Program-made: the position numbers and the translations under genes
Assembly (NCBI GenBank): GCA_039028935.1
Contig: JBCCHD010000001.1
Span: 135,181-199,180, forward strand
Direction: 5' to 3'
Source: Pseudomonadota bacterium
GTDB lineage: Bacteria > Pseudomonadota > Gammaproteobacteria > Steroidobacterales > SZUA-146
Length of the DNA stretch: 64,000 bases
Notes under the pieces: model-generated
Database searches by the model: none
The model's input: only the letters and a program-made list of their open reading frames with translations
Told to the model about the DNA's origin: nothing
In this document: positions 34,149-50,295 of the stretch, piece by piece
Position numbering within the stretch: the stretch's first letter is position 1
Layout: every line of letters begins with the position of its first letter

Positions 34149-37100
34149 TTAAAGGGTGTTGCAGTTGGCGAGTGAGCTGGGTCCCGGTGCGCCGAAGATG
34201 CTGTTGACCATGACCGGGTAGTCGAGGAAGTTGACCACACCGTCGCCGTTGAAGTCATGCAACGGGTCCGTGCTTTGGAACGCTCCGCCAAACAGCGCGA
34301 CATCCAAGAAATTCACTTCGCAGTCGTTGTTCGTGTCGGCGTCGCAGCGATTGCCAAAGCCATCGCCATCGGTGTCGAGCTGCGATGGGTTTGCCACATT
34401 GATGCAGTTGTCGTTGTTGTCTGTGAGACCGTCGGCGTCGCTGTCTACGGTGTCGTTGGGCAACGCATTCAGCTCATTGAGGTAGGCGCTGATCAACTGC
34501 GCACCAGCTGGATCAATGTCGAGCGTGGCGTGTGCGATGACCGCGTCGGTCAGATTGGCCGCCGAACCATCGTGAAGATACGGCGCCGACTGCCATAAGC
34601 CGTTCAGCGTGGGAGTGTCGATCGCGGCAAGTGTGCCACCCAGGCGGCCGCCGGATGCCGCGGTGATGGTGCCGATGTCGTGGGCACCACCGGTCGGTGA
34701 GTCCGTCGTCACCGTGCCGGCATGACAGGTTGCGCACCCCTGCTGAAGGAACAACGCTCGGCCCGCAATGGCGTCGGTGCTGAACGATTCGTCCGGTGCA
34801 CGAATGGGGTTCATGGGTGTGCTGGCCAGCGAGTTGAGATACGCGGCGAGCGCATCGAGATCGGCGCTGAGTCCTGCTTTGGGATCGCCCAGCGGTTGGC
34901 TCACGCTGCCGGCGAAATAATCGGCGTCGGCCATTAGACCGCTGCCGCCGGCAAAGTCGCGAATCTGCCCTTCGAAGTCTTGTACCTCGTCGAAGTTATT
35001 GCTCCAGTGTAAACCGCCGTGGGCCATGCCACCTTTGCCGATGAGCGAGATAGTGTTACGCAGGCCTTCGCCGAACTGAGTGAAGTCCCATACGCGGCCG
35101 TCGTCGTCGCCTTCGTTATGACACGATGCACAGCTCATGTAGTCGCTCGCGGCGAGCCGGTCGTCGAGCGCATCCGTAAAGAGCTGCTTGCCGAGCAAAA
35201 CGTTTGCCGATAACGCTTCGCTATTCACCATCGTGGTTGTCTGCAACTCGGTCGCGGCAAACGACACATCTTGCGAGATGGACGACACGTCGATGACGCT
35301 GACGCTGCGGTCCATAAAATTATGCGCATAGAGTCGATTACCATCAGCGGAAAGCACCACACTTTGCGGCGCACGACCCACATCCAGCCGCAACAGTTGT
35401 CCGCCATTGGACAGATCAATGACCGCCACGTGTCGGCTGGTCTCCAGTGCCACGAATAGTTTTTCACCATAGGCACCAATGACTGCACCCGTGGCCACAC
35501 TCGAGTTGTCGTGATCGATTCGCGCGGTGAGTAGCTCGGCGCTGTTGATTAGGTTTACTTGAGACGTCACGGCGCGCACGGTGTGGTCAAAATCGAGTGT
35601 GCTGCCGTCTCGGGCGGTGCCGCCTAGAATATTGTCTTGCTTGGACGGCACATAGGCCATCATGCCGTCGGGCGCGATGACCGGTGCGTTGAGATAATTG
35701 GGAATGCCCGGTCCTTGTGTTTCTGAGGCCACGACGTTGCGATGTTGAAGCCGAATCTCGCCTTCTGGTTGAAGCGTATTGGCGTTGACGCGACGTATCA
35801 GGCCGCCGTCGGTCGCCTGCGGTGTGACGAGCGTTGTGGACTCACCGGTTAACTGTGGCGTGATGAATTGCGTCACGAGCAGTTGCGCGCCGTCAGCCGT
35901 GATCGCAAGGTGTCGAGGTCGATAGCCAAGCGGCGCCATGCCGTTGATGTTTGCGGTGGCAACGTCGATACGCAATAACTCCGCGCTTGCCTCCAGCACC
36001 ACATAGGCGCTGCCGCCGCCGGGAGCGATGACAATACCATGCGGCGCGGAGCCGCGCGGTAAAAGCACGCTGCGTGTTACGTTGCGCGTGGCCACATCGA
36101 TGATGCTAATTGAGTCGTCGGCTTTGTTACTCACCCATACCTCATTTGTGCTGTCGCTATAGGTCAGTCCCCACGGTTTTGCCCCGACGTCGATCTCGTC
36201 GATTTGCACGCCTGCCGCTGACAGCACGCCCACCGTGTCGTTGTCCGGATTGACATTCCATAGGTTGGCGTCGACCGCGTTGCCCAGCCGAATGAGCGTA
36301 GAGGAACTCACCGCACGCGGGGCGAGCGAAATATTGTCGCCAATGCCGTCGCCGTTGCTGTCACTGGATTCGCGTGGGTTACTGGCGAAGACGTCGCCAT
36401 TGTCTCCGACGCCGTCACCATCGCTGTCCGCCGATTCATTGGGATCGCTGGGGAACGCGTCGCTGTTGTCGCCCACGCCATCAAGATCACTGTCCAGCCA
36501 TTCGGTATTGTCGTTGGGGAACGCGTCGATACTGTCCGCGTAGCCATCGCCATCGGAGTCAACCGGGCCGAGTCCATCAAGGGCTTGCAGGAGCGCGAAG
36601 GCGTTGGAAAATTCGGCGTGCAGACCTTCGGCGATAAATAGCTCAAGCGACGCGCCGCCGCCATTCTCAAAAAAGATGAGTTCGATGTCATGTACGCCCA
36701 CCCCTAGGTTGACCGAACCGAAGTTGTCGACGGGCGGATGGGTGAGGTTGTCTTCTATGAGCGTTTGACCGTTCACACGCAGTCGCACACCGTCATCAGA
36801 GTTAGTACCAAACGTGTAGTCGCCGTCTTTGACAATACTGATCTGTCCGGTAACGCGTACCGCGAGGGTATCGAGGTAGGGAAATAGCACGTTGTTGCCA
36901 AAATGACCGGTGCCACCTAAGCCATCCCAATAGTCGACGGTTGCAGTCGACTGGAACTCAGCCGCCACGCCGCCGCTATTGAGCAATGCTTCGGTAATTG
37001 CCAGTGTGTTGACCGCGTCGTCCGAGTCGACAAACAGCACATTGAACGTGCCATCACCGGCGTTGCCGAGTTCACCGTTAACCGGCTGCAGTAGTTCAAA

Positions 37101-39554
37101 CGCGTCTGAAAACGCGGTGAGCGAACCAGGTGCTAAGAACAACTCGAGCGTGGCGCCGCCGCCATTCTCAAAGTACACCAGCTCAATTTCATGAATGCCG
37201 GGGTCCAAATCGATAGTCCCGAAGCGGTTCGCTGGACCATGTAGCGCATCGTCTACGATTACGTCCTGGCCGTTCACACGTAGACGTAAGCCGTCATCAG
37301 AGTTAGTGCCAAAGGTGTACGTGCCCGCCGTGTAAATACCAAAACGACCGGTCACTCGTGTCACAAACGTATTGAGATACGGAAACACATCGTCATTGGT
37401 GAAGTTGCCGGTGCCGCCCTGATTGTCGACAATATTGACTTGTGGCAATGCTTGAAACTGAGCGTTCACACCACCGCTTGCGAGCAGCGCATCGGAGTCG
37501 GCGAGCGAAGTGACCGCGCTATCCGAATCGACAAATAGAAAATTGAATGTCGGCGTGTTGTCCGCACGCGGCAGAAGATGTGCGTTGGCCCAGTCAGCAT
37601 GGTCGCAGTTGATGTTGTCACCGCCGTCATTCACGCGCAGCGACAATGTGCTCACGCCGGCAATGCCCAAGTCCACGTCGACCGCGCCGCTTTGGTAGTC
37701 AAGCACTGGACTGGTGTAGAGCGGCAAATCATCACCAAACACGCTGAATTGTACGCTGCCGCACGCGGTGTCGACCACTTCGTCATCCACACCGAGCGTT
37801 GATTTAAAGCGGCTATAGTCGCCCGCGACATCGATGTCGATTTGCGACACTGCGTGCACACCCACACCTTTTGCGTAGGTGGTACCGCGAATGCTCAGTG
37901 TTGTGCCATCGCCTGCGGCCGTCTCGCCGTTGCTCATGTCGCGTTCGGCGGGGCCCCATCCGTTAACTTCGTTTTCCCACGCGAGATCCGAGATATAGAT
38001 CTCATCACCGGTGGGCACATCGGGCGGGCGCTGTACCTGCAAAATGTGGCCGACGGAAGGCGCCCCATTGGCGCCGATCGCGAACATCCAGTAATAGCCC
38101 GGCACCACGACATTGGGATTGGGGTTAAGCGAAAGTTCATACGTGCCGGCGCCCGTTGCCGTGAAGTCGATCGGAATAAAACGCTGGTCCGTGTTGATGG
38201 CGTGCGTTGTTGCCGACAGGCGCACCATGGAAAATTTCGTGACCCCGTCGCTGGCCGAAACGTTCAATACGTCGCCGGCGCGTGCGGTGGACGCCGCCGC
38301 TGTGATTTGTGGTCGGGTCGCGTTCGAGCCGTCTGCGTTAAATAAGTACGGTGGCGAAAAAATTTGTCCGTCAAGATGATTGGCGCTACAGCCACCACAG
38401 GCGCCACCACCGGCGGCCAATACGCGACCGTCACGCAGCAGCAGACCAATCGAATGGTAGTTGCGTGGCACGGTCATGCTCGCGAGCACTTCCCATTCAT
38501 CCAGATCGGGCTTGTAGAGCTCCGCCGCAAACACACTCGCGTCATCATTAAACAGTCGACCGTCGGTGTTGCCGCCCACCACCAATACGTCGCCCGTCGG
38601 CAGCATCACCGTGTTGGAGTTGGCGCGGCCCGTGTTGATCGGTGCTGCATTCGTCACGACCGGTGCAGGTCCATTCAAGTCGACCAGATAAACATCGTTT
38701 GTCACCGCCGGGTTGGTCGTGCGGTCATAGCCGCCCACTAAGATGACTTTACCGACATCGTACGTGGTGACATTACCGAACATGCGGGTGCGTGTGCCGG
38801 TTGGCTGACCCAAATCGGTCACCCCGCCTGAACCATACGGATCAAACTCATGCCATGTGGGCGTCGGGCCCCCATGAAACACATTGCCATTTGGGCCCAC
38901 GGCCATCTGCGCCCACCATTGCATATTGGCGGCACTGTTGACGACCGGTTCGCCATTGGCGGCGTTTTGCTCGTTGAGTAAGTCGATCATGGTCGCGCCG
39001 GGTGTGAGCGTCCAGGTGTTTGAGGCGGGCGAGAACCGTTCCGACGAATCGCCGGCGGTATTGGCGAAGGTGGAGAAAATGGTGTTGTTGGGCAGCGTGA
39101 GATTTGTACCGTACCAGCGTGTGCGGTTCATTGTGGGTAAAGGTGTCCATTCGAGTGCCACCGGATCGAACGCGCTCGTGCGTACGTCATTGGGGTTACC
39201 GCCGGAGGCGACAAATCGGCCATCTTCCAACGTCGACACGCCTGCGCAAAACATGTCGTGGAAATCACTGTCGACATTGGTGAACGTTTCGGTGGTGGGG
39301 TCAAACAACGACGAGTGGGTAAACTCCCGGTTGGCCGGAAACGCGTTCACTTCGGTCGAGGAATAGGACACGATGCGACCGTCGGGCAGGGTGCCCGCGG
39401 TAATCGCGATATGCGGCCAGGCGATCGGGCTGCCCCAGGCACCATCGGTCGCATTGCGTAGTTGGGTTTCCTTGTCGCCATCATCAGCGAACGCGGTCAT
39501 GGACAGAACGCACGCCGCAACGACGGCGCTGGCTAGCACACTTGGCTTGATCAT
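34149..39554 (-). CDS. 1801-aa secreted mosaic protein. Domain order: copper radical oxidase (galactose oxidase/GlxA-like), NPCBM, 2x PA14, TSP3 repeats, beta-propeller, di-haem cytochrome c peroxidase-like module, TSP3/dockerin-like tail
   Basis: Single uninterrupted ORF. Signal peptide MIKPSVLASAVVAACVLSMTAFA. Domain evidence is listed in the sub-features below. Confidence 0.9.
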   Translation of the reverse strand: MIKPSVLASAVVAACVLSMTAFADDGDKETQLRNATDGAWGSPIAWPHIAITAGTLPDGRIVSYSSTEVNAFPANREFTHSSLFDPTTETFTNVDSDFHDMFCAGVSTLEDGRFVASGGNPNDVRTSAFDPVALEWTPLPTMNRTRWYGTNLTLPNNTIFSTFANTAGDSSERFSPASNTWTLTPGATMIDLLNEQNAANGEPVVNSAANMQWWAQMAVGPNGNVFHGGPTPTWHEFDPYGSGGVTDLGQPTGTRTRMFGNVTTYDVGKVILVGGYDRTTNPAVTNDVYLVDLNGPAPVVTNAAPINTGRANSNTVMLPTGDVLVVGGNTDGRLFNDDASVFAAELYKPDLDEWEVLASMTVPRNYHSIGLLLRDGRVLAAGGGACGGCSANHLDGQIFSPPYLFNADGSNATRPQITAAASTARAGDVLNVSASDGVTKFSMVRLSATTHAINTDQRFIPIDFTATGAGTYELSLNPNPNVVVPGYYWMFAIGANGAPSVGHILQVQRPPDVPTGDEIYISDLAWENEVNGWGPAERDMSNGETAAGDGTTLSIRGTTYAKGVGVHAVSQIDIDVAGDYSRFKSTLGVDDEVVDTACGSVQFSVFGDDLPLYTSPVLDYQSGAVDVDLGIAGVSTLSLRVNDGGDNINCDHADWANAHLLPRADNTPTFNFLFVDSDSAVTSLADSDALLASGGVNAQFQALPQVNIVDNQGGTGNFTNDDVFPYLNTFVTRVTGRFGIYTAGTYTFGTNSDDGLRLRVNGQDVIVDDALHGPANRFGTIDLDPGIHEIELVYFENGGGATLELFLAPGSLTAFSDAFELLQPVNGELGNAGDGTFNVLFVDSDDAVNTLAITEALLNSGGVAAEFQSTATVDYWDGLGGTGHFGNNVLFPYLDTLAVRVTGQISIVKDGDYTFGTNSDDGVRLRVNGQTLIEDNLTHPPVDNFGSVNLGVGVHDIELIFFENGGGASLELFIAEGLHAEFSNAFALLQALDGLGPVDSDGDGYADSIDAFPNDNTEWLDSDLDGVGDNSDAFPSDPNESADSDGDGVGDNGDVFASNPRESSDSNGDGIGDNISLAPRAVSSSTLIRLGNAVDANLWNVNPDNDTVGVLSAAGVQIDEIDVGAKPWGLTYSDSTNEVWVSNKADDSISIIDVATRNVTRSVLLPRGSAPHGIVIAPGGGSAYVVLEASAELLRIDVATANINGMAPLGYRPRHLAITADGAQLLVTQFITPQLTGESTTLVTPQATDGGLIRRVNANTLQPEGEIRLQHRNVVASETQGPGIPNYLNAPVIAPDGMMAYVPSKQDNILGGTARDGSTLDFDHTVRAVTSQVNLINSAELLTARIDHDNSSVATGAVIGAYGEKLFVALETSRHVAVIDLSNGGQLLRLDVGRAPQSVVLSADGNRLYAHNFMDRSVSVIDVSSISQDVSFAATELQTTTMVNSEALSANVLLGKQLFTDALDDRLAASDYMSCASCHNEGDDDGRVWDFTQFGEGLRNTISLIGKGGMAHGGLHWSNNFDEVQDFEGQIRDFAGGSGLMADADYFAGSVSQPLGDPKAGLSADLDALAAYLNSLASTPMNPIRAPDESFSTDAIAGRALFLQQGCATCHAGTVTTDSPTGGAHDIGTITAASGGRLGGTLAAIDTPTLNGLWQSAPYLHDGSAANLTDAVIAHATLDIDPAGAQLISAYLNELNALPNDTVDSDADGLTDNNDNCINVANPSQLDTDGDGFGNRCDADTNNDCEVNFLDVALFGGAFQSTDPLHDFNGDGVVNFLDYPVMVNSIFGAPGPSSLANCNTL
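34200..34457 (-). other. C-terminal Cys-containing TSP3 repeats plus dockerin/EF-hand-like tail (aa ~1700-1785)
   Basis: DSDADGLTDNNDNCINVANPSQLDTDGDGFGNRCDADTNNDC, then DFNGDGVVNFLD. Confidence 0.55.
34515..35207 (-). other. domain: di-haem cytochrome c peroxidase / MauG-family module (aa ~1450-1680)
   Basis: LLGKQLFTD...SCASCH (nt 35118-35132), GCATCH (nt 34722-34736) and IDTPTLNGLWQSAPYLHDGSAANLTDAV. Confidence 0.75.
35265..36302 (-). other. domain: YVTN/YncE-like beta-propeller repeats (aa ~1085-1430)
   Basis: Recurrent blades: PWGLTYSDSTNEVWVSNKADDSISIIDVAT, PHGIVIAPGGGSAYVVLEASAELLRIDVAT, PRHLAITADGAQLLV and PQSVVLSADGNRLYAHNFMDRSVSVIDVS. Confidence 0.65.
36333..36563 (-). repeat. thrombospondin type 3-like calcium-binding repeats (aa ~998-1074)
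   Basis: DSDGDGYADSIDAFPNDNTEWLDSDLDGVGDNSDAFPSDPNESADSDGDGVGDNGDVFASNPRESSDSNGDGIGDN. Confidence 0.75.
36579..37550 (-). repeat. tandem duplication of a PA14 domain (aa ~669-824 and ~836-992), period about 167 aa
   Basis: Copy 1: TFNFLFVDSDSAV...YTFGTNSDDGLRLRVNGQDV...IELVYFENGGGATLELF. Copy 2: TFNVLFVDSDDAV...YTFGTNSDDGVRLRVNGQTL...IELIFFENGGGASLELF. Confidence 0.8.
37569..38006 (-). other. domain: NPCBM (NEW2) putative carbohydrate-binding module, aa ~517-662
   Basis: IYISDLAWENEVNGWGPAERDMSNGE...IRGTTYAKGVGVHAVSQIDIDV...GVDDEV...CDHADWANAHL. Confidence 0.75.
38031..39452 (-). other. domain: galactose oxidase / glyoxal oxidase-like kelch propeller plus C-terminal Ig-like (DUF1929) domain, aa ~35-508
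   Basis: DMFCAGVS (Cys103), TRWYGTN (Tyr148), PRNYHSIGLLLRDGRVLAAGGGACGGC (Tyr366/His367) and RLSATTHAINTDQRFIP (His451). These correspond to galactose oxidase Cys228, Tyr272, Tyr495/His496 and His581. Confidence 0.8.
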
Positions 39555-39614
39555 TTTTTAACGCCCGTTTTGTCGCAGAGGCGACATCGCCCGCTGCGGT
39601 GATTCTTTTTATTA

Positions 39615-39626
39615 CTGATTAATCAG
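39615..39626. promoter_or_regulatory. perfect 12-bp palindrome CTGATTAATCAG abutting the -12 element
   Basis: Read directly from the sequence. It overlaps the predicted -12 element and transcription start zone of the sigma-54 candidate. Confidence 0.35.
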
Positions 39627-39641
39627 CATGTTTCGTGCCAA
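39625..39641 (-). promoter_or_regulatory. candidate sigma-54 (RpoN) promoter for the 1801-aa gene
   Basis: The minus strand reads TTGGCACGAAACATGCT versus consensus TGGCACG-N4-TTGCW. GG and GC are at the exact canonical spacing, with one mismatch (A for T). It lies about 70-85 nt upstream of the ATG at 39554. Confidence 0.5.
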
Positions 39642-40106
39642 CGCGTGCCATCTCAAGGTAATCCATGTGCTTAAGGAGTGCGACCGCTACTCTTTTGAGT
39701 CGAGATGTAAAGTCGCTCGACGCAAAGTAGTCACGAGTCAGACACTTACGTTCGATGGCCGCTTGGATTACGTCTAATCGATGCAGTGGACAGGTGGCGG
39801 ATATGGAACAGTCTCGGCGCGACACGGGGATGAAGTCCAAGGGGTCACGTGCCGGCTTTCTGCGTTCGAGTGTCAGGCCTCAGGCTTCAGGCTTGCTGTT
39901 TCGGATTATCGGTGCGCATTGCACGGATTCGGTCGTTTGCGTTCGACGTCAAAAGGCCGCTCGATTGTGGTTTGAGTCGAGACGGTTTTTGTCCCTGGGT
40001 ATGTTGGTGTGATCGATGTCGGTCTCTAGCGGGCGAGCCGCGGGAAAGGCGTTGTGCGACAACTGCTTGCGCGGTGGCGATATACCGATCGTTAAGCCGG
40101 GCGAAT

Positions 40107-42569
40107 TTAGCGTGCCGATGTGTCGTCGCTGAGCACATTGAGAAACGCAACGAGTTCTTTGATCGCGCGCTCGTCGAGCGACTCGATGGGCACGAGTTCG
40201 TGCCAGGTTGTGCGTTTGTCGGCGGGATCCGAGTAATACACCAGCACATCGGTCAGTGTGTCGAACCGGCCGTCGTGCATATACGGTGCAGTGGTGCGCA
40301 ATCCACGCAGGCCTGGCGTTCGAAAGGCGCCGTCGAGTAAGCGCGGTACTTCCGCGGCACGCGCGTCGTCGAGATGTCGACAGACGGCGTCCGCCTCGCC
40401 GTATTCACTCGCGCAATTGAATGGGTCGTTCAGCAAGGCCTCGATACCCGCGAGTCGCCCGGTATCGTGCCGCCCGTTTGCGTTGGTGCCGGTACCGATA
40501 TTATGAAACTGCCCGTTCGTGAATCGTGGACCGTTGTGACAGCTCACACACTGCGTGTCGGCCGAAATGAAGCGTTTGAGTCCGGCGATTTCGGTGTGGG
40601 TTAACAGATTGCTGTGCTGGGGCGCGTCGCTGAGTAAGTCGTCCACCCATACATCGAAGCGCGTAGGAGTGAACACAAATCGTCGTTGATGGGCGGCCAG
40701 CGCTTTGCCCAGACGCACAAACGTGCGATTCAGGCGGGATTCTTGAGATGGGCTCAACGCGTTGTCGTTGAGGGCGCGGACAAACGTCTCCGGCAGGGGT
40801 TCGAATGCGTTTGCATACAGTGTCGCCAGCGCCGAATCGTTGGCCACCAAACGCACCGCATCGTAGCGGTTACCCCCCATCTCGCCCGGCGCTTCGATGG
40901 GTTCAAGCGCTTGCGACCAAAGGCTGTCTTTGCGCCCATCCCAATAATAGTGCTGTCGCCAAGCAACCCCCACCAGCCCCGGCGTGTTTCGCGTTAATGG
41001 CGCGAGCCCCGTTGCGGTTGCTTGGCCATCAGCCAGTCCAAGAGGTGACTGATGACACGTGGCGCACGCGACCGTTTGGGTGGCGCTCAATCGCGCGTCG
41101 TGAAACAGCGCTTGGCCGAGCGCCGCGGCGGCGGCACTGTTAAACACGTCGTTGCCCGGATCGTTGGGTGCCTCGCCTAACGACGTGAGCGACAGTGTTG
41201 CTAACAGTGTTTTTTCGGACGCAGTAAACCTGGTTGACGTTGGCGTCGCTGACGGTTGAGCCTGAGGATTGCTGTAAGCGGGCGAACTCAGCGACTCGAG
41301 AAAGGCCACAAGGTCCGTGCGCTGGGCGGCCGACAAATTAAGGGTCACCAGCTCGTTGTCGTCAGGTGGCGCAGAGTAGTGGGCGAGCACCGCGTCGAGT
41401 GACTCCGCCCGACCATGATGAAAGTAGGGTGCGGTGTGCGCGACGTTTCGCAATGTAGGTGTTTTGAACGCGCCGGCCATGTCGCCGTGCTGGTCGCGTG
41501 AGAGAAAGCGCAGTGCCGAACATTCATTCGCATCGGCGTCGCTATGAGGGCCAAGGCAGTTGAACTGGTCAAGCAAGACCGCCTGAACGCCAAACAAACG
41601 ACCAAAGTCGAGCACCTCACCACGCGCCGACGCCGCGTGTGCGGTGCCTTCAATGGCACCCGTGCCGATGTTGTGAAAGTCACCGTTTGTGAGGAGCGGT
41701 CCGCTGTGGCACTGCAGGCAACGCGATGCCTCAAAATCAATAAAGAGCTTGGCACCGCGCCGCGCCGCCTCGCTGAGTAACGGTGCGGCCGCGTCTTCGC
41801 CGTCTTGAATGAGCGTATCCACATAGCGGTCAAACGGCGCGGGTCGTGGGGTCAACGTGCGCTCATAGGCTGCGAGGGCTTTGCCCACATTGGCATAGGC
41901 TGAATTGACCGCTTGGCGTGTGCGTGCGGGCATGCGGAACCAGGCGTTCTGCCCGGCCTGATCGGCAAATTCGCCAGCGTGCGGGGGTAGCCTTCCCGCG
42001 CGCAGAACGGGTGGCAACGGACCAAAAACCGCCGCGTAGGTGTCGATATAGTCCGGATCTTGCGCAATGAGGTTCACAGCTGCGGTGCGACTTCCGCCCA
42101 TCTCATCGGGTGCTTCGATTGGAATGAGCGCCTGCGACCAGAGCGAGTCGCGTCGGCCGTCCCAATAAAACCAATGCTGCCACGCGCCGCCGATCAACGT
42201 TGGTGTATTGCGCGACAAGGTTCTAATGCCCTGGCCGGTCGGTAAACCGTCGGTAAAATACTTTTGCGGTTGATGACAGCTGGCACACGACTGCGTACCG
42301 TCGCCGCTGAGGCGCGTATCGAAAAAAAGTGCTTCACCCAATCGAACCGCGTCGGGGTGGTTGGCGACGCGATTTGATGGTGCTTTCGGTGTCGGCAAAC
42401 TCGCCAGACTCAGCGAGCGCAAGATGGACACTTCCTCTTCTGTCCAAAAGCGTGGTGTCGGCGAACAACTCACGAGCAACGCGAGCCAACCCACGCTGAG
42501 ACTGATGCGCAGGGTCATTCTGATCGGCAGATTAATGCGGCTCACGTCGAAACGCCCAGTCGATAGCAC
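40107..42569 (-). CDS. lipoprotein made of two tandem di-haem cytochrome c peroxidase/MauG-family modules (four CXXCH)
   Basis: Lipobox WLALLVSC. CASCH at 42273-42287, CLQCH at 41706-41720, CATCH at 41052-41066, CVSCH at 40536-40550. Each half repeats the pattern LF.D.RLS...C..CH, NTP.L, YWDGR.DSLWSQA, IEAP.EMGG, C..CH.GP..TNG.FHNIGTG, F.TP.LR, APY.H.GR. The start may be ATG 42518 (MTLRISLSVGW). Confidence 0.85.
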   Translation of the reverse strand: MLSTGRFDVSRINLPIRMTLRISLSVGWLALLVSCSPTPRFWTEEEVSILRSLSLASLPTPKAPSNRVANHPDAVRLGEALFFDTRLSGDGTQSCASCHQPQKYFTDGLPTGQGIRTLSRNTPTLIGGAWQHWFYWDGRRDSLWSQALIPIEAPDEMGGSRTAAVNLIAQDPDYIDTYAAVFGPLPPVLRAGRLPPHAGEFADQAGQNAWFRMPARTRQAVNSAYANVGKALAAYERTLTPRPAPFDRYVDTLIQDGEDAAAPLLSEAARRGAKLFIDFEASRCLQCHSGPLLTNGDFHNIGTGAIEGTAHAASARGEVLDFGRLFGVQAVLLDQFNCLGPHSDADANECSALRFLSRDQHGDMAGAFKTPTLRNVAHTAPYFHHGRAESLDAVLAHYSAPPDDNELVTLNLSAAQRTDLVAFLESLSSPAYSNPQAQPSATPTSTRFTASEKTLLATLSLTSLGEAPNDPGNDVFNSAAAAALGQALFHDARLSATQTVACATCHQSPLGLADGQATATGLAPLTRNTPGLVGVAWRQHYYWDGRKDSLWSQALEPIEAPGEMGGNRYDAVRLVANDSALATLYANAFEPLPETFVRALNDNALSPSQESRLNRTFVRLGKALAAHQRRFVFTPTRFDVWVDDLLSDAPQHSNLLTHTEIAGLKRFISADTQCVSCHNGPRFTNGQFHNIGTGTNANGRHDTGRLAGIEALLNDPFNCASEYGEADAVCRHLDDARAAEVPRLLDGAFRTPGLRGLRTTAPYMHDGRFDTLTDVLVYYSDPADKRTTWHELVPIESLDERAIKELVAFLNVLSDDTSAR

Positions 42570-42577
42570 GGCGCACC

Positions 42578-43048
42578 TCAGAAAGTCAGATCGATCTCAA
42601 AACGCACATCATCGGTGCCCAGTGCTGAACCGATGCGGTAGCTGAGGACCCAGGCACCGGCCATGTTGAAGCGCACGCCCTCAATTCGATAGCGGCCGTC
42701 GCCAAGATGGTCGGTGATTTGAGGCTGTGTGGGGAGTCCATGGCCGTGACCGGGCATACCGCCACCCATTTGTATACGCGCCGGGAACACCGCGTCGCCG
42801 TCGGTATCCGTCAGTGTTAACACCCACTCGTGATAGTCGCCGATGAGCACATCGCCATCGCGCGGTTCAATGCGCACGTGATAGAGGCCGTTACCGGAGG
42901 CCTGTTGCCAACCCATTGCGGCGGGCTCGGATGGCGCATCGGCCCGTTCGCACGCGGTGGTGACAAACAGCACCAACAGCACTGGCAGCAACCGGAACGC
43001 ACGTCGGCGAGCGGACGGTGAATGGGCGGCATGTTGAAGTTCGATCAT
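42578..43048 (-). CDS. small lipoprotein with YtkA/FixH-like Ig-fold domain and a His/Met/Gly-rich loop; twin-arginine-like signal
   Basis: ORF 42578-43399 trimmed to MIELQHAAHSPSARRRAFRLLPVLLVLFVTTAC (RRxF plus lipobox). YHEWVLTLTDTDGDAVFPARIQMGGGMPGHGHGLPTQP...GDGRYRIEGVRFNMAGAWVLSYRI matches the YtkA-like pattern. The upstream part of the track ORF is AT-rich and looks non-coding. Confidence 0.6.
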   Translation of the reverse strand: MIELQHAAHSPSARRRAFRLLPVLLVLFVTTACERADAPSEPAAMGWQQASGNGLYHVRIEPRDGDVLIGDYHEWVLTLTDTDGDAVFPARIQMGGGMPGHGHGLPTQPQITDHLGDGRYRIEGVRFNMAGAWVLSYRIGSALGTDDVRFEIDLTF

Positions 43049-43420
43049 CACGCGCAAAATCGTGCCGAAGGAAGCCAAAGCGGTCAACCGATCACGCCAC
43101 AGTTGACGCGTTCTGTTGGCGGAGTAGATAGAAAAAGGCCATTTTTGCGACGGCGTTACGGTGTCCGATGAGCATATCGGTGAATGTATTTGACTAAGGA
43201 TTATTCTTAGATTGCAAACAATGATCGCGCCAATCTCCCTACCGTACGGGCGGATCAATTGCCAATACTCGTTAACTATCTGAATTATAGAGGATAAAAT
43301 ATCACTATTCGGATTTAGCACCGACTCGAATTGCGTGGCGGTTGTGCATCGCAACAGGACATTAATCCGGGTTTTGCGATAATGCCCGTCCGGTAACATT
43401 TATCAGAAGGAACGACATTA

Positions 43421-47800: not shown

Positions 47801-50122
47801 TTACGGTGTGGTGGGTTGAACAACATCCGAGGCATTTCGCGTACCAGGGCCGGCGCGCTCGTCGGCGGCGCGCTGATAGAACGCGTCATTTCGATCGCTG
47901 TTGGCTTCGGCGATAAGGTAGGCGCGAATGGCTTCGGAGGTCGAATCATCGATGAAGCGTCGAAAACCAGCCATGCCAAGAGGCGCTTTGGCACCCTCAA
48001 GCACCACGCTGTCCCAGGCGGCCTGGACCGCGAGAAACGGTGAGTAGCGCAAGTTGGGTATCGACCCATAGGACTGACCGTGATCGCCATGACAGGCGGC
48101 ACAATACTCGATATACGCTTTGCTGCCCGTCGCCACCACGTCGCGAGAGGCGGTGGCCGGCGGCGGCGCTGGGCGCTCGGATGCGACGACGGGCAATGGC
48201 GGTAGTTCGCCATTCGCACCGAGCTTGAACGCCATTACGCGGCCGACTTTTGGTTCGCCACCCGCCGCGGACACGCCGCCCATTACTAGGCCGAACGCGC
48301 CGCCCCAACCCGATGCCACGGCGATGTACTGCTCGCCCTCTAGCGCGTAACTTACCGGCGCCGCGACAATGCCCGTTTGACTAAAAAAGCGCCATAGTCG
48401 GTCGCCGGTGCGCGCATCAAACGCCGCAAAGTGGGCATCGGCGGTTCCCTGAAACACCAGGTTGCCCGCGGTAGACAAGACACCGCCATTCCAAGGACCC
48501 AGGTGTTCATGCGTCCACGCCGCTTTTTGATTGACCGGATCCCAGGCGATGAGCCGGCCTTTCAACAGCGTGCGCACGGCACGAAAAAACGCTTTGTTCG
48601 TTGGCAACGACCCCAGCATTTCGTTAACACCGGTATTCCAGGTGCCGTGCTCATACCGAAAATCGGGGTCGTCCGAGTAGGTAAACGGCACTTCTTGCGC
48701 GGGAATGTACACCAACTGCGTATCGGGATTGAACGCCATGGGTTGCCAGTTGTGCGCGCCGATGGGCCCGGGTGTTTGCAGGTAGGGACGGCTTCCGGGC
48801 CAACGCGCACCGGGCACTTCAACCGGTCGACCACTCTGCGGATCGATATGGGTGGCCCAGTTGACTGGAACAAAATTGTTCGCCGAAATCAGCGCGCCGG
48901 TGACGCGATCGATGACGTAGAAAAAGCCATTTTTGGGCGCTTGCATCAACACCTTGCGGGCGTCGCCTTCGATCATCAAATCGGCGAGGATCATGTGCTG
49001 CGTGGCGGTGTAGTCCCAGGTTTCACCCGGCGTAGTTTGATAGTGCCAAATGTACTCGCCGGAATCGGGATTGAGCGCCACAATCGAAGACAGAAACAGG
49101 TTGTCGCCACCGTCAGGACTGCGCAGACGTTGATTCCAGGGCGAGCCATTGCCGACCCCGATGTAGAGCTGGTTTAGCTCGGCGTCGTAGGCCATCGAGT
49201 CCCACACGGTGCCACCCCCGCCGCTGGTCCACCATTGGCCTGTCCAGGTGTCGGCCGCCATGGCCAGCACATCGTGCTCGAAGCCCTCCGTTGGGTTGCC
49301 AGGCACCGTATAAAATCGCCACACCATGTCGCCCGAGTCCAGATCGTAGGCCGACACATAGCCCCGCACACCGTACTCGGCGCCGCCGTTACCGATGATC
49401 ACTTTGTCTTTTACGATGCGCGGTGCGCCGGTGATGGAGTAGGACTTGGACAAATCGATCGTAAGCACGTCCCAGTTGGGCTGACCGGTTCGCTTATCCA
49501 ACGCGATGAGTCGCCCATCGATTGTGCCGGTGAATACCTGATCGCCATGAAGCGCGACCCCGCGATTAACCGCGTCACAACACAAGAAGGCGCCGCGCGA
49601 CCGATCGACTTTGGGGTCGTATTGCCAGAGCTGTTCGCCCGTGCGCGCGTCGAGTGCGGTGACGATATTCCAGGTGGCGGTGACATACATGACGCCGTCT
49701 TTTACGATCGGTGTCGCCTCAATGCCGCGACTGACCCCCAGATCGAACGACCAGGCCAAACCCAACGCATCGATGTTGTCAGCATGAATCTGATTGAGCG
49801 GCGAATGTCGCTGCTCGGAGTAAGTGCGACCATGATGCGGCCAATCGGTGTCGGCGGCTTCGCGTCCATCCGGTTCTGAAGCGAGCGCGTTGGCTAGGCG
49901 CGCGGTGGGCCGCGACGAGCTCGATGCCGGTGAGTCAAGCCGCGGTGCCGCGGTGTCCTGGCCCTGTGTCGCCTGGGGCGGGCTGTCTCCACTGCAGGCA
50001 ATAAGTGTCACAACGAGCCACGCCATAAGGCACGCATTCCACGTCATGCGATCGCGTCGGTTCGTTAAGCGCGTGCGCGCAAATGAGACGTGCGGTGGTA
50101 AATCGGTCATGCGGTCAGTCAT
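47801..50122 (-). CDS. PQQ-dependent alcohol dehydrogenase, quinohaemoprotein type (C-terminal cytochrome c domain), predicted lipoprotein
   Basis: Vicinal disulfide LCCDAVNRG, W-docking propeller repeats, and C-terminal YIEYCAACHGDHG (CXXCH). Lipobox VTLIACSG. Alternative starts at 50110 and 50047. Confidence 0.85.
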   Translation of the reverse strand: MTDRMTDLPPHVSFARTRLTNRRDRMTWNACLMAWLVVTLIACSGDSPPQATQGQDTAAPRLDSPASSSSRPTARLANALASEPDGREAADTDWPHHGRTYSEQRHSPLNQIHADNIDALGLAWSFDLGVSRGIEATPIVKDGVMYVTATWNIVTALDARTGEQLWQYDPKVDRSRGAFLCCDAVNRGVALHGDQVFTGTIDGRLIALDKRTGQPNWDVLTIDLSKSYSITGAPRIVKDKVIIGNGGAEYGVRGYVSAYDLDSGDMVWRFYTVPGNPTEGFEHDVLAMAADTWTGQWWTSGGGGTVWDSMAYDAELNQLYIGVGNGSPWNQRLRSPDGGDNLFLSSIVALNPDSGEYIWHYQTTPGETWDYTATQHMILADLMIEGDARKVLMQAPKNGFFYVIDRVTGALISANNFVPVNWATHIDPQSGRPVEVPGARWPGSRPYLQTPGPIGAHNWQPMAFNPDTQLVYIPAQEVPFTYSDDPDFRYEHGTWNTGVNEMLGSLPTNKAFFRAVRTLLKGRLIAWDPVNQKAAWTHEHLGPWNGGVLSTAGNLVFQGTADAHFAAFDARTGDRLWRFFSQTGIVAAPVSYALEGEQYIAVASGWGGAFGLVMGGVSAAGGEPKVGRVMAFKLGANGELPPLPVVASERPAPPPATASRDVVATGSKAYIEYCAACHGDHGQSYGSIPNLRYSPFLAVQAAWDSVVLEGAKAPLGMAGFRRFIDDSTSEAIRAYLIAEANSDRNDAFYQRAADERAGPGTRNASDVVQPTTP

Positions 50123-50295
50123 GCGTTGTTTAGGCGGCGTTCGGTCAGTGATCGGGTGACGATACGATGATGGGTGGTCGCCCGTTGTGGTAACGCGCGT
50201 ATTGTCACCACTCGTTGAACACGCGCGGTCATCCTCGGTGTCGTGCAATAGACAGAGTATAAAGAAAGGGTAGCCGAAGCGTCATGCAAAACGCG

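What the first reader, a model, noticed from the sequence alone, without database searches (positions are those of the whole stretch)
40107..42569. 820-aa lipoprotein is an internal tandem duplication of a complete di-haem peroxidase/MauG-like enzyme (four CXXCH motifs)
Bacterial CcpA, MauG and MbnH enzymes are ~300-400 aa with two haems. This ORF carries two full copies, at aa ~45-430 and ~450-820, joined by a Ser/Pro/Thr/Gln linker (SSPAYSNPQAQPSATPTSTRF). Both halves repeat the same ordered motifs. The haem sites are CASCH 42273-42287 and CLQCH 41706-41720 in half 1, and CATCH 41052-41066 and CVSCH 40536-40550 in half 2. The halves have diverged at the distal-haem region (APYFHHGRAES versus APYMHDGRFDT), which hints at sub-functionalisation. 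Some family members (MauG, MbnH) oxidise residues of a partner protein rather than scavenge H2O2. A role in maturing or activating the neighbouring Cys-Tyr oxidase is therefore an alternative to detoxification.
Basis: partly seen in the sequence, partly recalled or inferred. Interest (0 to 1): 0.62.

Follow-up and report, generated by a model that had tools for sequence, protein, structure and literature searches.

The report
Four-haem fused MauG-like peroxidase pair
This gene really encodes two complete two-haem MauG-type enzymes joined in one lipoprotein, and its second half belongs to a rare branch always found next to a giant galactose-oxidase-type copper enzyme, so it is probably that oxidase's peroxide-using partner.

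Summary
ORF 40107-42569(-) has two full CCP_MauG units (40% identical, E 7e-82) and four CXXCH motifs at the stated coordinates. Both units keep every key catalytic residue. These include the MauG-type axial Tyr (Y398, Y779), so neither unit is a canonical His/Met peroxidase.

The origin is not a recent internal duplication. Unit 1 and unit 2 fall in two old sister-family clades, A and B, each with stand-alone members. An AU test rejects a tandem-only clade (p 1e-32). Other contigs carry the same two genes unfused, with a 4-nt overlap.

The architecture is rare: about a dozen sequences, and one representative in a library of 1.84 billion.

Context gives a conserved cassette: a YtkA-like Met/His copper-type lipoprotein, then A, then B, then a giant galactose-oxidase/propeller/di-haem protein. 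All 9 B-clade loci with readable flanks have the giant next door. Two of these were tested prospectively. None of 54 other family loci has it.

Best reading, by inference: an H2O2-driven partner or activator of the copper radical oxidase, with copper supplied through YtkA. This parallels Streptomyces GlxA/Sco/DtpA and the fungal AlcOx/PerOx pairs. I found no description in the searchable literature.

The parts
40107..42569 (-). 820-codon ORF: the fused two-unit (A-B) MauG-like four-haem lipoprotein. The start is GTG 42569 (a GAGG lies 5-10 nt upstream and the YtkA stop 8 nt upstream) or ATG 42518. Both give the same mature protein.
42465..42569 (-). Signal peptide ending in the lipobox LVSC (Cys35).
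   Evidence: Lipoboxes are also present in P0003, P0009, P0010, P0011 and P0122. P0004-P0008 have ordinary signal peptides.
41277..42449 (-). Unit A (residues 41-431). Haem sites are C95/C98/H99 and C284/C287/H288. Also present: W136, Q146/P150/E156, N121/T379/P381, the Cys pair C338/C350, and the axial Tyr Y398 (41376-41378).
41229..41276 (-). Ser/Pro/Thr/Gln-rich linker YSNPQAQPSATPTSTR. It is disordered in the model. Its length and sequence vary among fused relatives.
40110..41228 (-). Unit B (residues 448-820). Haem sites are C502/C505/H506 and C674/C677/H678. Also present: W543, Q553/P557/E563, N528/T760/P762, the Cys pair C719/C730, and the axial Tyr Y779 (40233-40235).
42578..43048 (-). 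Upstream partner gene: a YtkA-like lipoprotein of 156 aa. The 273-aa mechanical ORF is over-extended. The motif MPGHGHG lies at 42737-42757, and the MPxHGHG motif is conserved in at least 80% of 42 partners. The stop is 8 nt before the tandem gene's GTG.
34149..39554 (-). Downstream partner gene of 1801 aa: a galactose-oxidase-type copper radical oxidase, NPCBM, 2 x PA14, TSP3 repeats, a beta-propeller and a CCP/RoxA-like di-haem module.
39625..39641 (-). Sigma-54-like element TGGCACGAAACATGCT (one mismatch to TGGCAC-N5-TTGCW) in the 552-nt spacer, about 70-85 nt before the giant gene's ATG. The giant may therefore have its own promoter.

Best explanation
Shown: the gene encodes a genuine four-haem lipoprotein made of two complete MauG-type di-haem units. 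Each unit has a five-coordinate peroxide-binding haem with a Gln/Pro/Glu pocket, an inter-haem Trp, a Ca site, and a second haem with His/Tyr ligation. The protein arose by end-to-end fusion of two old paralogues, clade A and clade B. Elsewhere these are separate, translationally coupled genes. The fusion belongs to a conserved cassette: a YtkA-like Met/His (copper-type) lipoprotein, then A, then B, then a giant protein carrying a galactose-oxidase-type copper radical oxidase (CRO) and a propeller/di-haem module. A-type units travel with YtkA and are often fused to it. B-type units travel with the giant.

Inferred mechanism: the CRO makes H2O2. Each unit uses H2O2 to reach a high-valent (MauG-like bis-Fe(IV)-type) state and withdraws electrons from a protein partner over a distance. 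Unit B acts on the giant. It would keep or put the CRO in its active Cu(II)-tyrosyl-radical form, and perhaps help cofactor maturation, while removing the peroxide. Unit A works with the YtkA-like protein in copper handling or delivery. The fusion holds both activities at the membrane next to their clients.
For: Two CCP_MauG units and four CXXCH motifs. All key residues are kept in both units and in clades A and B. MauG Tyr294 aligns with Y779, and through the gapless self-alignment with Y398. In the alignment with Geobacter CcpA the loop before RNTP is two residues shorter and holds no His, so the distal-His loop of bCCPs is absent.

Clades A and B each have SH-aLRT support of 99. The AU test gives p 1.5e-32 against a tandem-only clade. 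Unfused cassettes YtkA|A|B|giant with a 4-nt A/B overlap occur in L098 and L099, and partly in L010.

B-clade loci with a GalOx-like giant number 9 of 9: the window, G002, L010, L011, L013, L014, L096, L098 and L099. Non-B loci give 0 of 54, Fisher p 2e-9. A species of the same genus with only YtkA+A lacks both B and the giant at the locus. YtkA lies upstream of or is fused to the unit in 45 of 79 family loci.

The giant's CRO domain matches galactose oxidase structures at E 3e-89 and keeps the HDMFC, Y, YH and H motifs.

Precedents: Streptomyces GlxA needs the Cu chaperone Sco and the haem peroxidase DtpA (PMC4736821). A fungal CRO is activated by its natural peroxidase partner (PMC12951238). 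The YtkA domain acts in copper-centre assembly (PMC13344008). MbnH and MauG oxidise partner proteins (PMC11951088, PMC6405878).
Against: No biochemical data exist for any member. Context association is not mechanism, and the 9 loci are not phylogenetically independent.

Two fused relatives from one JGI sample (the P0005 and P0007 contexts) show no GalOx Pfam hit on record nearby. They have only a 789-aa neighbour, and for P0007 it is CCP/RoxA-like. B's direct client may therefore be the propeller/di-haem module rather than the CRO domain.

Galactose oxidase forms its Tyr-Cys cofactor autocatalytically, so a maturase is not strictly required.

In the window a 552-nt spacer with a sigma-54-like element separates the tandem gene from the giant, so co-transcription is not assured.

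MauG Trp199, its hole-hopping surface residue, has no equivalent here (S282, T672).

The model's pTM of 0.62 gives no confident inter-unit geometry.
Confidence: 0.5

Rival explanations
1. It is an ordinary periplasmic H2O2 scavenger. Two bCCP-like peroxidase units simply detoxify peroxide using small electron donors, possibly a copper-loaded YtkA-like protein acting like azurin. The fusion only raises capacity, and there is no specific action on the oxidase.
For: The N-terminal haem domains match canonical bCCPs best by sequence (E 5e-26). The fold matches bCCP and MauG equally. The full peroxide-activating pocket is kept. Sitting beside an H2O2-producing oxidase fits local detoxification.
Against: His/Tyr rather than His/Met ligation of the second haem is invariant in clades A and B. 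The C-terminal domain matches MauG and the MbnH-like 6e1c structure best. Two distinct clades with distinct obligate neighbours, repeatedly fused or split, are hard to explain by capacity alone. The genome already has a canonical-length 366-aa CCP elsewhere.
Confidence: 0.2
2. It is an MbnH/MbnP-like copper system unrelated to the oxidase. The di-haem units post-translationally oxidise a residue of the YtkA-like partner, for example the conserved Trp, to build or tune a copper site. That site would serve copper acquisition or homeostasis.
For: A-type units are very often fused to or preceded by YtkA. The partners share the invariant-like motifs MPxHGHG and MxGxW. MbnH makes kynurenine in the Cu protein MbnP (PMC11951088). 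6e1c, a 'MauG-like protein associated with microbial copper homeostasis', is among the best C-terminal matches.
Against: Scores fall below the MbnH family cut-off: 265 bits for the whole protein and 144 and 127 for the two units, against 362.85. None of the five neighbouring ORFs I scanned against Pfam, which include both immediate neighbours, looks MbnP-like. This reading does not explain the exclusive link between clade B and the giant. It could still hold for unit A alongside the best explanation.
Confidence: 0.15
3. It is an electron wire. The four haems here plus the two haems of the giant's C-terminal module form a multi-haem chain. The chain would carry electrons between the copper oxidase, or its substrate, and a periplasmic or membrane redox partner, with no peroxide chemistry.
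For: Six c-haems lie in adjacent proteins of one cassette. The giant's di-haem module is only weakly CCP-like (34 bits), which suits a relay.
Against: Both units keep the complete peroxide-binding pocket (Gln/Pro/Glu) and the Ca site under strong conservation. A pure wire would not need these. No inter-protein geometry is available.
Confidence: 0.1
4. It is a recent internal tandem duplication, or an assembly or frameshift artefact joining two ordinary genes.
For: The halves are 40% identical with the same motif order. Split A|B versions do exist in other lineages.
Against: The AU test rejects a tandem-only clade (p 1.5e-32). Each unit has closer stand-alone relatives than the other unit. Fused frames with different linkers recur in at least 9 independent sequences, including G002 of the same genus. 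Stand-alone B proteins have their own signal peptides, which the fused form lacks. So the fusion is a real evolved state.
Confidence: 0.03

Closest known systems
MauG (tryptophan tryptophylquinone biosynthesis di-haem enzyme, Paracoccus denitrificans; PDB 3l4m)
   Same: The CCP_MauG fold is shared. The five-coordinate peroxide haem with a Gln/Pro/Glu pocket, the inter-haem Trp and the Ca-site Asn/Thr/Pro are all present. The second haem is His/Tyr-ligated, with Tyr294 aligned to Y779 and Y398. The expected chemistry is H2O2-driven oxidation of a partner protein.
   Different: Scores are far below the MauG equivalog cut-off: 162 and 145 bits per unit against 443.85. There is no Trp199 equivalent. 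There is no methylamine dehydrogenase context. Two units sit in one chain. The family has an extra conserved Cys pair.
MbnH / MbnP and the MbnH-like protein 6e1c ('MauG-like protein associated with microbial copper homeostasis')
   Same: A MauG-like di-haem enzyme is genetically paired with a small periplasmic copper-type protein. The C-terminal domain similarity is among the best found. The copper link is shared.
   Different: Scores are below the MbnH family cut-off. The partner is a YtkA-fold protein, not MbnP. There is no methanobactin operon. A second unit is tied to a copper radical oxidase.
Canonical bacterial cytochrome c peroxidases (CcpA of Pseudomonas, Nitrosomonas, Geobacter, Shewanella)
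   Same: These are the best sequence matches for the N-terminal haem domain. The fold match is equal. The peroxide pocket and Ca site are shared.
   Different: The axial ligand is Tyr instead of Met. The distal-His activation loop is shorter and lacks His. The protein is a covalent two-unit chain rather than a homodimer. It is a lipoprotein with a conserved protein-partner context.
Streptomyces lividans GlxA - Sco - DtpA, and the fungal CorAlcOx - CorPerOx pair
   Same: The functional logic matches: a copper radical oxidase, a haem peroxidase that uses its H2O2 and is needed for its maturation or activation, and in Streptomyces a copper chaperone as well (PMC4736821, PMC12951238). Here the CRO giant, the tandem di-haem enzyme and the YtkA-like protein form the same triad.
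   Different: The peroxidases are unrelated in fold (DyP-type or class II haem b peroxidase versus c-type di-haem MauG-like). The chaperone family differs (Sco versus YtkA-like). Here the link is known only from conserved gene order.
BthA (Burkholderia di-haem enzyme, PDB 6nx0)
   Same: It is a MauG-like His/Tyr di-haem enzyme of unknown substrate that forms bis-Fe(IV), and it has a conserved C-terminal disulfide (PMC6405878).
   Different: Only a weak local match is found (E 9e-9 over about 40 residues). It lies in a different clade, is a single unit, and has no YtkA or CRO context.

Membership tests
Pfam PF03150 CCP_MauG superfamily | HMM score above the gathering cut-off | tested here: met
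   275.5 bits against 25.6, in two stretches. Each unit covers the full profile of my own two-unit HMM.
Pfam PF03150 CCP_MauG superfamily | Two CXXCH c-haem sites per unit, an inter-haem Trp and a Ca-site Asn/Thr/Pro | tested here: met
   C95/C98/H99, C284/C287/H288, C502/C505/H506 and C674/C677/H678; W136/W543; N121/T379/P381 and N528/T760/P762.
MauG proper (TIGR03791 equivalog) | Score above the curated cut-off of 443.85 bits | tested here: not met
   297.9 bits for the whole protein; 162.3 and 145.2 bits per unit.
MauG proper (TIGR03791 equivalog) | Tyr axial ligand of the six-coordinate haem (Tyr294) | tested here: met
   The gapless alignment to 3l4m places Y779 on Tyr294. Y398 is equivalent through the self-alignment. 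The Tyr is invariant in clades A (35/35) and B (15/15).
MauG proper (TIGR03791 equivalog) | Surface Trp199 used for hole hopping to preMADH, and a mau operon context | tested here: not met
   The position two residues before the second CXXCH is S282 and T672. The neighbours are the YtkA-like gene and the CRO giant, not methylamine dehydrogenase genes. I did not search the rest of the genome for mauA/mauB.
MbnH family (TIGR04039) | Score above the cut-off of 362.85 bits | tested here: not met
   265.1 bits for the whole protein; 144.2 and 127.5 bits per unit.
MbnH family (TIGR04039) | An adjacent MbnP partner gene | tested here: inconclusive
   The five neighbouring ORFs I scanned against Pfam, including both immediate neighbours, hit YtkA, GalOx-type domains, DUF937, beta-lactamase or nothing. 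I ran no MbnP-specific model.
Canonical bCCP (CcpA-type H2O2 reductase) | His/Met ligation of the electron-transfer haem | tested here: not met
   The aligned ligand position is Tyr in both units. That the Met of bCCPs occupies the same column is from my knowledge of the N. europaea and P. aeruginosa structures.
Canonical bCCP (CcpA-type H2O2 reductase) | A loop carrying the distal His that blocks the peroxide haem until reductive activation | tested here: not met
   In the alignment to Geobacter CcpA the loop 'TGHGWQKGPRN' corresponds to 'TGLAPLTRN'. It is two residues shorter and has no His. Unit 1 reads 'GQGIRTLSRN'.
Bacterial lipoprotein | A signal peptide ending in the lipobox [LVI][ASTVI][GAS]C | tested here: met
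   LVSC with Cys35 after a hydrophobic stretch. This is a pattern match only, with no experimental proof.
YtkA-A-B-CRO cassette (defined here) | A B-clade unit adjacent to a GalOx-type giant, and an A-clade unit preceded by a YtkA-like gene | tested here: met
   The window order is YtkA 42578-43048, A-B 40107-42569, giant 34149-39554. The same order occurs in G002, L096, L098 and L099.

The most novel reading that the evidence does not exclude
This would be the first dedicated bacterial 'activase' for copper radical oxidases. A two-headed MauG-type enzyme would use the oxidase's own H2O2 to generate or maintain its tyrosyl-cysteine radical by long-range hole transfer (unit B). In the same polypeptide it would cooperate with a YtkA-fold copper carrier (unit A). 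Together with the giant's own di-haem module this would form a self-contained copper-plus-haem oxidative machine on the cell envelope. It would give MauG-like chemistry a third known class of protein client, after preMADH and MbnP.
Probability: 0.3. Interest if true: 0.8.

Novelty: new variant of a known kind. Interest (0 to 1): 0.66.

Why it matters
MauG-like di-haem enzymes are known for remarkable long-range protein oxidation, yet only two client systems are understood (preMADH and MbnP), and most of the superfamily has no assigned substrate. Copper radical oxidases need an oxidising activator. Natural peroxidase partners are known only for one fungal pair and, genetically, for Streptomyces GlxA/DtpA.

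A conserved bacterial cassette that ties a specific MauG-like clade to a CRO, and a sister clade to a YtkA-type copper protein, gives a concrete and testable client hypothesis for a large orphan branch of the CCP_MauG family. It also suggests a ready-made activator for bacterial CROs of biocatalytic interest. The fused and split forms provide a natural Rosetta-stone argument that all four parts work together.

Tried and rejected
- **Hidden stop or two ordinary genes.** Rejected on independent fused orthologues.
- **Recent internal duplication.** Rejected by the IQ-TREE clades and the AU test.
- **Degenerate second unit.** Rejected, because all catalytic residues are kept in both units.
- **MauG or MbnH equivalog membership.** Scores are below the curated cut-offs.
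- **The PYF/PYM motif as a marker of sub-functionalisation.** It varies within clade A.
- **Scan of GTDB genome contigs with a unit-2 profile.** It returned mostly generic family members at 41% identity or less. Only L014 fell in clade B, so it served mainly as the negative control set.
- **Full-length AlphaFold2 model.** In the alignment MAFFT placed the B-type singles on unit 1, so the alignment over unit 2 was shallow.
- **Literature searches.** I searched for YtkA plus cytochrome c peroxidase, for CCP_MauG, for galactose oxidase plus MauG, and for 6E1C. None returned a description of tandem units or of the CRO link.
- **Intrinsic terminator after the tandem gene.** None is convincing on the minus strand. 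An exact sigma-54 consensus is absent, and a one-mismatch site is present.
- **Sequencing runs.** Only the marine metagenome that probably yielded the assembly holds the sequence, so this is not independent support and there is no RNA evidence.
Full report
**1. The observation**

The minus-strand ORF 40107-42569 is open for 820 codons. Pfam reports CCP_MauG (PF03150) in two stretches, 275.5 bits against a cut-off of 25.6. Residues 1-429 and 430-820 align over their whole length at 40% identity, E 7e-82.

The N-terminus ends in a lipobox, LVSC, with Cys35. The earliest start, GTG 42569, lies 8 nt after the stop of the upstream gene and behind a GAGG. ATG 42518 is the alternative start. Both give the same mature protein.

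An AlphaFold2 model folds both units well (mean pLDDT 84.5). The linker (residues 434-444) is disordered. The pTM of 0.62 means the mutual arrangement of the units is not confidently predicted. Foldseek matches each unit to bCCPs and to MauG about equally, with target-normalised TM-scores of 0.68-0.77.

**2. Is the fusion real, and how common is it?**

A word-indexed search of 5.8 billion clusters found full-length two-unit relatives P0003-P0009. They are 716-818 aa and 45-55% identical. All but the truncated P0008 cover at least 94% of the query. Fragments P0012-P0014 add to these. All full-length relatives keep four CXXCH motifs.

In an exhaustive HMMER pass over 1.84 billion 50%-identity representatives, only one of the best 150 hits (P0003) has two units. 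Within the window's own genus, G002 carries the fused form at 61% identity. Linkers differ in length and sequence among the fused proteins.

A hidden stop or an assembly artefact is therefore excluded. The architecture is rare, with about a dozen sequences known. I found no paper describing it.

**3. What kind of di-haem unit is it?**

Alignment to MauG (3l4m) is gapless across the C-terminal motif. It places the MauG Ca-site residues Thr275 and Pro277 on T760 and P762, and the axial ligand Tyr294 on Y779. The self-alignment makes Y398 the equivalent residue in unit 1.

I checked 89 family units. The following are invariant or nearly so in both clades and present in both units of this protein:
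- the two CXXCH motifs;
- the inter-haem Trp (W136, W543);
- the distal Gln/Pro/Glu pocket (Q146/P150/E156 and Q553/P557/E563);
- the Ca-site Asn, Thr and Pro;
- the axial Tyr;
- a family-specific Cys pair (C338/C350 and C719/C730).

The loop that carries the blocking distal His in activatable bCCPs is shorter here and lacks His. MauG's surface Trp199 has no counterpart (S282, T672).

NCBIfam scores are well below the equivalog cut-offs. For MauG they are 162 and 145 bits per unit against 443.85. For MbnH they are 144 and 127 bits against 362.85.

Both units therefore look catalytically complete. They are MauG-like (His/Tyr) rather than canonical His/Met peroxidases, but they are members of neither MauG proper nor the MbnH family.

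**4. Origin: a fusion of two old paralogues, not an internal duplication**

A FastTree of 270 units and an IQ-TREE (LG+C20+F+G4) of 89 units give the same picture. All unit 1 sequences lie in clade A (35 rows, SH-aLRT 99) together with 26 single-unit proteins. All unit 2 sequences lie in clade B (15 rows, SH-aLRT 99) together with six stand-alone proteins. Forcing the 18 tandem units into one clade costs 457 log-likelihood units, with AU p 1.5e-32.

Unfused versions exist. In L098 and L099 the order is YtkA, then an A-clade gene, then a B-clade gene overlapping it by 4 nt. In L010 the tail of the upstream gene (...ELDDLERFLRALSGVEPAR*) matches the end of unit A in fused P0004 (...ELDDLVQFLRSLSGAEPARPAPTMTW...) right up to the point where the stop is missing.

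Stand-alone B proteins carry their own signal peptides, which the fused forms lack. Stand-alone P0137 nests among fused unit 2 sequences (SH-aLRT 99). Fusion or fission therefore happened more than once.

In sister species G003 and G001 the A gene ends right at the start of the window's linker (LESLSSPTY..., LNTLNSPAY...).

**5. Genomic context**

*Upstream.* The real YtkA-like gene is 42578-43048, encoding 156 aa. It has a lipobox-like signal, a Pfam YtkA hit and the loop GGGMPGHGHG. Across 42 partner proteins the motif MPxHGHG is conserved at 80% or more, as are a downstream Met and Trp (MxGxW). YtkA precedes every fused relative whose context could be read. It precedes or is fused to the unit in 45 of 79 other family loci. 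Many close relatives are YtkA-CCP fusions of about 520-580 aa. The YtkA fold is implicated in copper-centre assembly in Bacillus (CtaK and the YcnJ C-terminal domain; PMC13344008).

*Downstream.* The 1801-aa protein carries several modules:
- a galactose-oxidase-type domain, which matches solved galactose oxidases at E 3e-89 and keeps HDMFC, the cross-link Tyr, YH and the second His;
- NPCBM;
- two PA14 domains;
- a propeller;
- a weak CCP/RoxA-like di-haem module.

*The decisive pattern.* Every B-clade locus with readable flanks has such a giant next to it. The nine loci are the window, G002 (L095), L010, L011, L013, L014, L096, L098 and L099. I chose L098 and L099 as a prospective test before looking at their context. 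None of 54 non-B family loci with at least 3 kb of flank on both sides has a GalOx-like ORF (Fisher p 2e-9). The loci are not phylogenetically independent. In G001, of the same genus, YtkA plus A is present but both B and the giant are missing at the locus.

*Caveats.* Two fused relatives from one JGI sample have no GalOx hit on record nearby. They have only a 789-aa neighbour, which is CCP/RoxA-like for P0007. B's direct client could therefore be the propeller/di-haem module. In the window a 552-nt spacer with a one-mismatch sigma-54-type element (TGGCACGAAACATGCT) precedes the giant gene. The giant may therefore be transcribed on its own.

**6. Mechanism**

Shown:
- four c-haem sites;
- two complete MauG-type units;
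- fusion of clades A and B;
- the conserved cassette YtkA | A | B | CRO giant.

Inferred: the CRO domain oxidises a glycan-bound alcohol and releases H2O2. The di-haem units bind H2O2 at their five-coordinate haems and reach a high-valent state shared with the His/Tyr haem, as in MauG, MbnH and BthA (PMC6405878, PMC11951088). They then take electrons from protein partners.

Unit B would act on the giant. It would regenerate or install the active Cu(II)-tyrosyl radical state and consume the peroxide. Unit A would work with the YtkA-like copper protein.

Copper radical oxidases are known to need an oxidising activator, usually a peroxidase. A natural fungal peroxidase partner has been characterised (PMC12951238). 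In Streptomyces the CRO GlxA depends on the chaperone Sco and the haem peroxidase DtpA (PMC4736821). The same triad logic appears here with unrelated protein families.

I put about 0.5 on this reading. The rivals and their weights are:
- plain peroxide scavenging, 0.2;
- an MbnH/MbnP-like modification of the YtkA partner independent of the oxidase, 0.15 (it could also hold for unit A alongside the main model);
- a pure multi-haem electron wire, 0.1;
- duplication or artefact, 0.03.

**7. Comparison and novelty**

The protein is a member of the CCP_MauG superfamily. It works most like MauG and MbnH but fails both equivalog tests, and it fails the His/Met criterion of canonical bCCPs.

Three things are new:
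- the covalent A-B four-haem architecture;
- the split of this orphan family into a YtkA-linked clade and a CRO-linked clade;
- the four-part cassette.

I rate it a new variant of a known kind. Its 'internal tandem duplication' and 'distal-haem divergence' arguments are not supported. Its alternative functional idea, a link to the neighbouring Cys-Tyr oxidase, is supported by context.

The source is a marine metagenome-assembled genome (4.1 Mb, 91 contigs, 97% complete). The hisS-bamB-der gene order I read in the window looks gammaproteobacterial, but I did not verify the taxon.

Noticed in passing
window 42578-43399 (-): The mechanical 273-aa ORF is over-extended. The real YtkA-like lipoprotein probably starts at ATG 43048 (MIELQ..., with RRRAF and then a lipobox-like TTAC). 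Its MPGHGHG loop (42737-42757) is part of a motif, MPxHGHG ... MxGxW, conserved in at least 80% of 42 partner proteins. This looks like a Met/His copper site.
   Followed up: partly
window 39625-39641 (-), in the spacer 39555-40106: A sigma-54-like element, TGGCACGAAACATGCT, has one mismatch to the consensus. It abuts the palindrome CTGATTAATCAG, about 70-85 nt upstream of the giant gene's ATG. No convincing intrinsic terminator follows the tandem gene.
   Followed up: partly
P0006 and P0009 unit 2 (plus one more B-clade member): In 3 of 15 clade-B units the otherwise invariant inter-haem Trp is Arg (Y/F-R-DGR). This should disturb haem-to-haem electron transfer. In the window W543 is kept.
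   Followed up: no
window residue H385 (unit A, motif APYFHHG; about 41415-41417): The window's unit A has His where at least 90% of 46 aligned relatives have Asp, in the PY(F/M)HDG motif next to the Ca site.
   Followed up: no
G000 contigs C4:116337-117956, C52:14424-20186, C59:12936-16973, C16:65853-66950 and C16:73173-74597: The same genome holds several related genes: a YtkA-fused single-unit paralogue (540-aa frame), two further giant ORFs (1921 and 1346 aa) with weak CCP-like di-haem ends but no adjacent MauG-like gene, a canonical-length 366-aa CCP, and a divergent 475-aa one.
   Followed up: partly
L001, L002, L098, L099 and the P0007 context: In the lineage of P0004, P0007, P0267 and P0275, the cassette is preceded by a conserved set of genes: a MacB-type ABC transporter (MacB_PCD/FtsX x 2 plus an ATPase), FtsH, and in L098 and L099 a DegP-like trypsin-PDZ protease immediately upstream of YtkA.
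   Followed up: no
L013 407-6026 and L098 9229-13905: The giant GalOx/propeller/di-haem genes are split over two or three frames in these long-read metagenome contigs. These are probably assembly frameshifts, not pseudogenes.
   Followed up: no
L014 8626-11056 and L097 210-2700: In two loci the B-clade gene is paired head-to-head with a divergently transcribed single-unit CCP gene. In L014 that gene was placed in the tree and lies outside clades A and B. The L097 partner was not placed. There is no upstream A gene.
   Followed up: no
window 47801-50248 (-): An 815-aa ORF reads like a PQQ-type beta-propeller dehydrogenase with a C-terminal CAACH cytochrome c domain (quinohaemoprotein type). That would be another exported haem enzyme 5 kb away. 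I read this from the translation only.
   Followed up: no
G003 contig C26 (2976-3191 and 8319-9476): A sister species that has only YtkA+A at the orthologous locus carries an 1857-aa giant frame elsewhere. About 5 kb from it lies another single-unit family gene (46% identity to unit A, 580-aa frame). I did not determine the clade of that unit.
   Followed up: no
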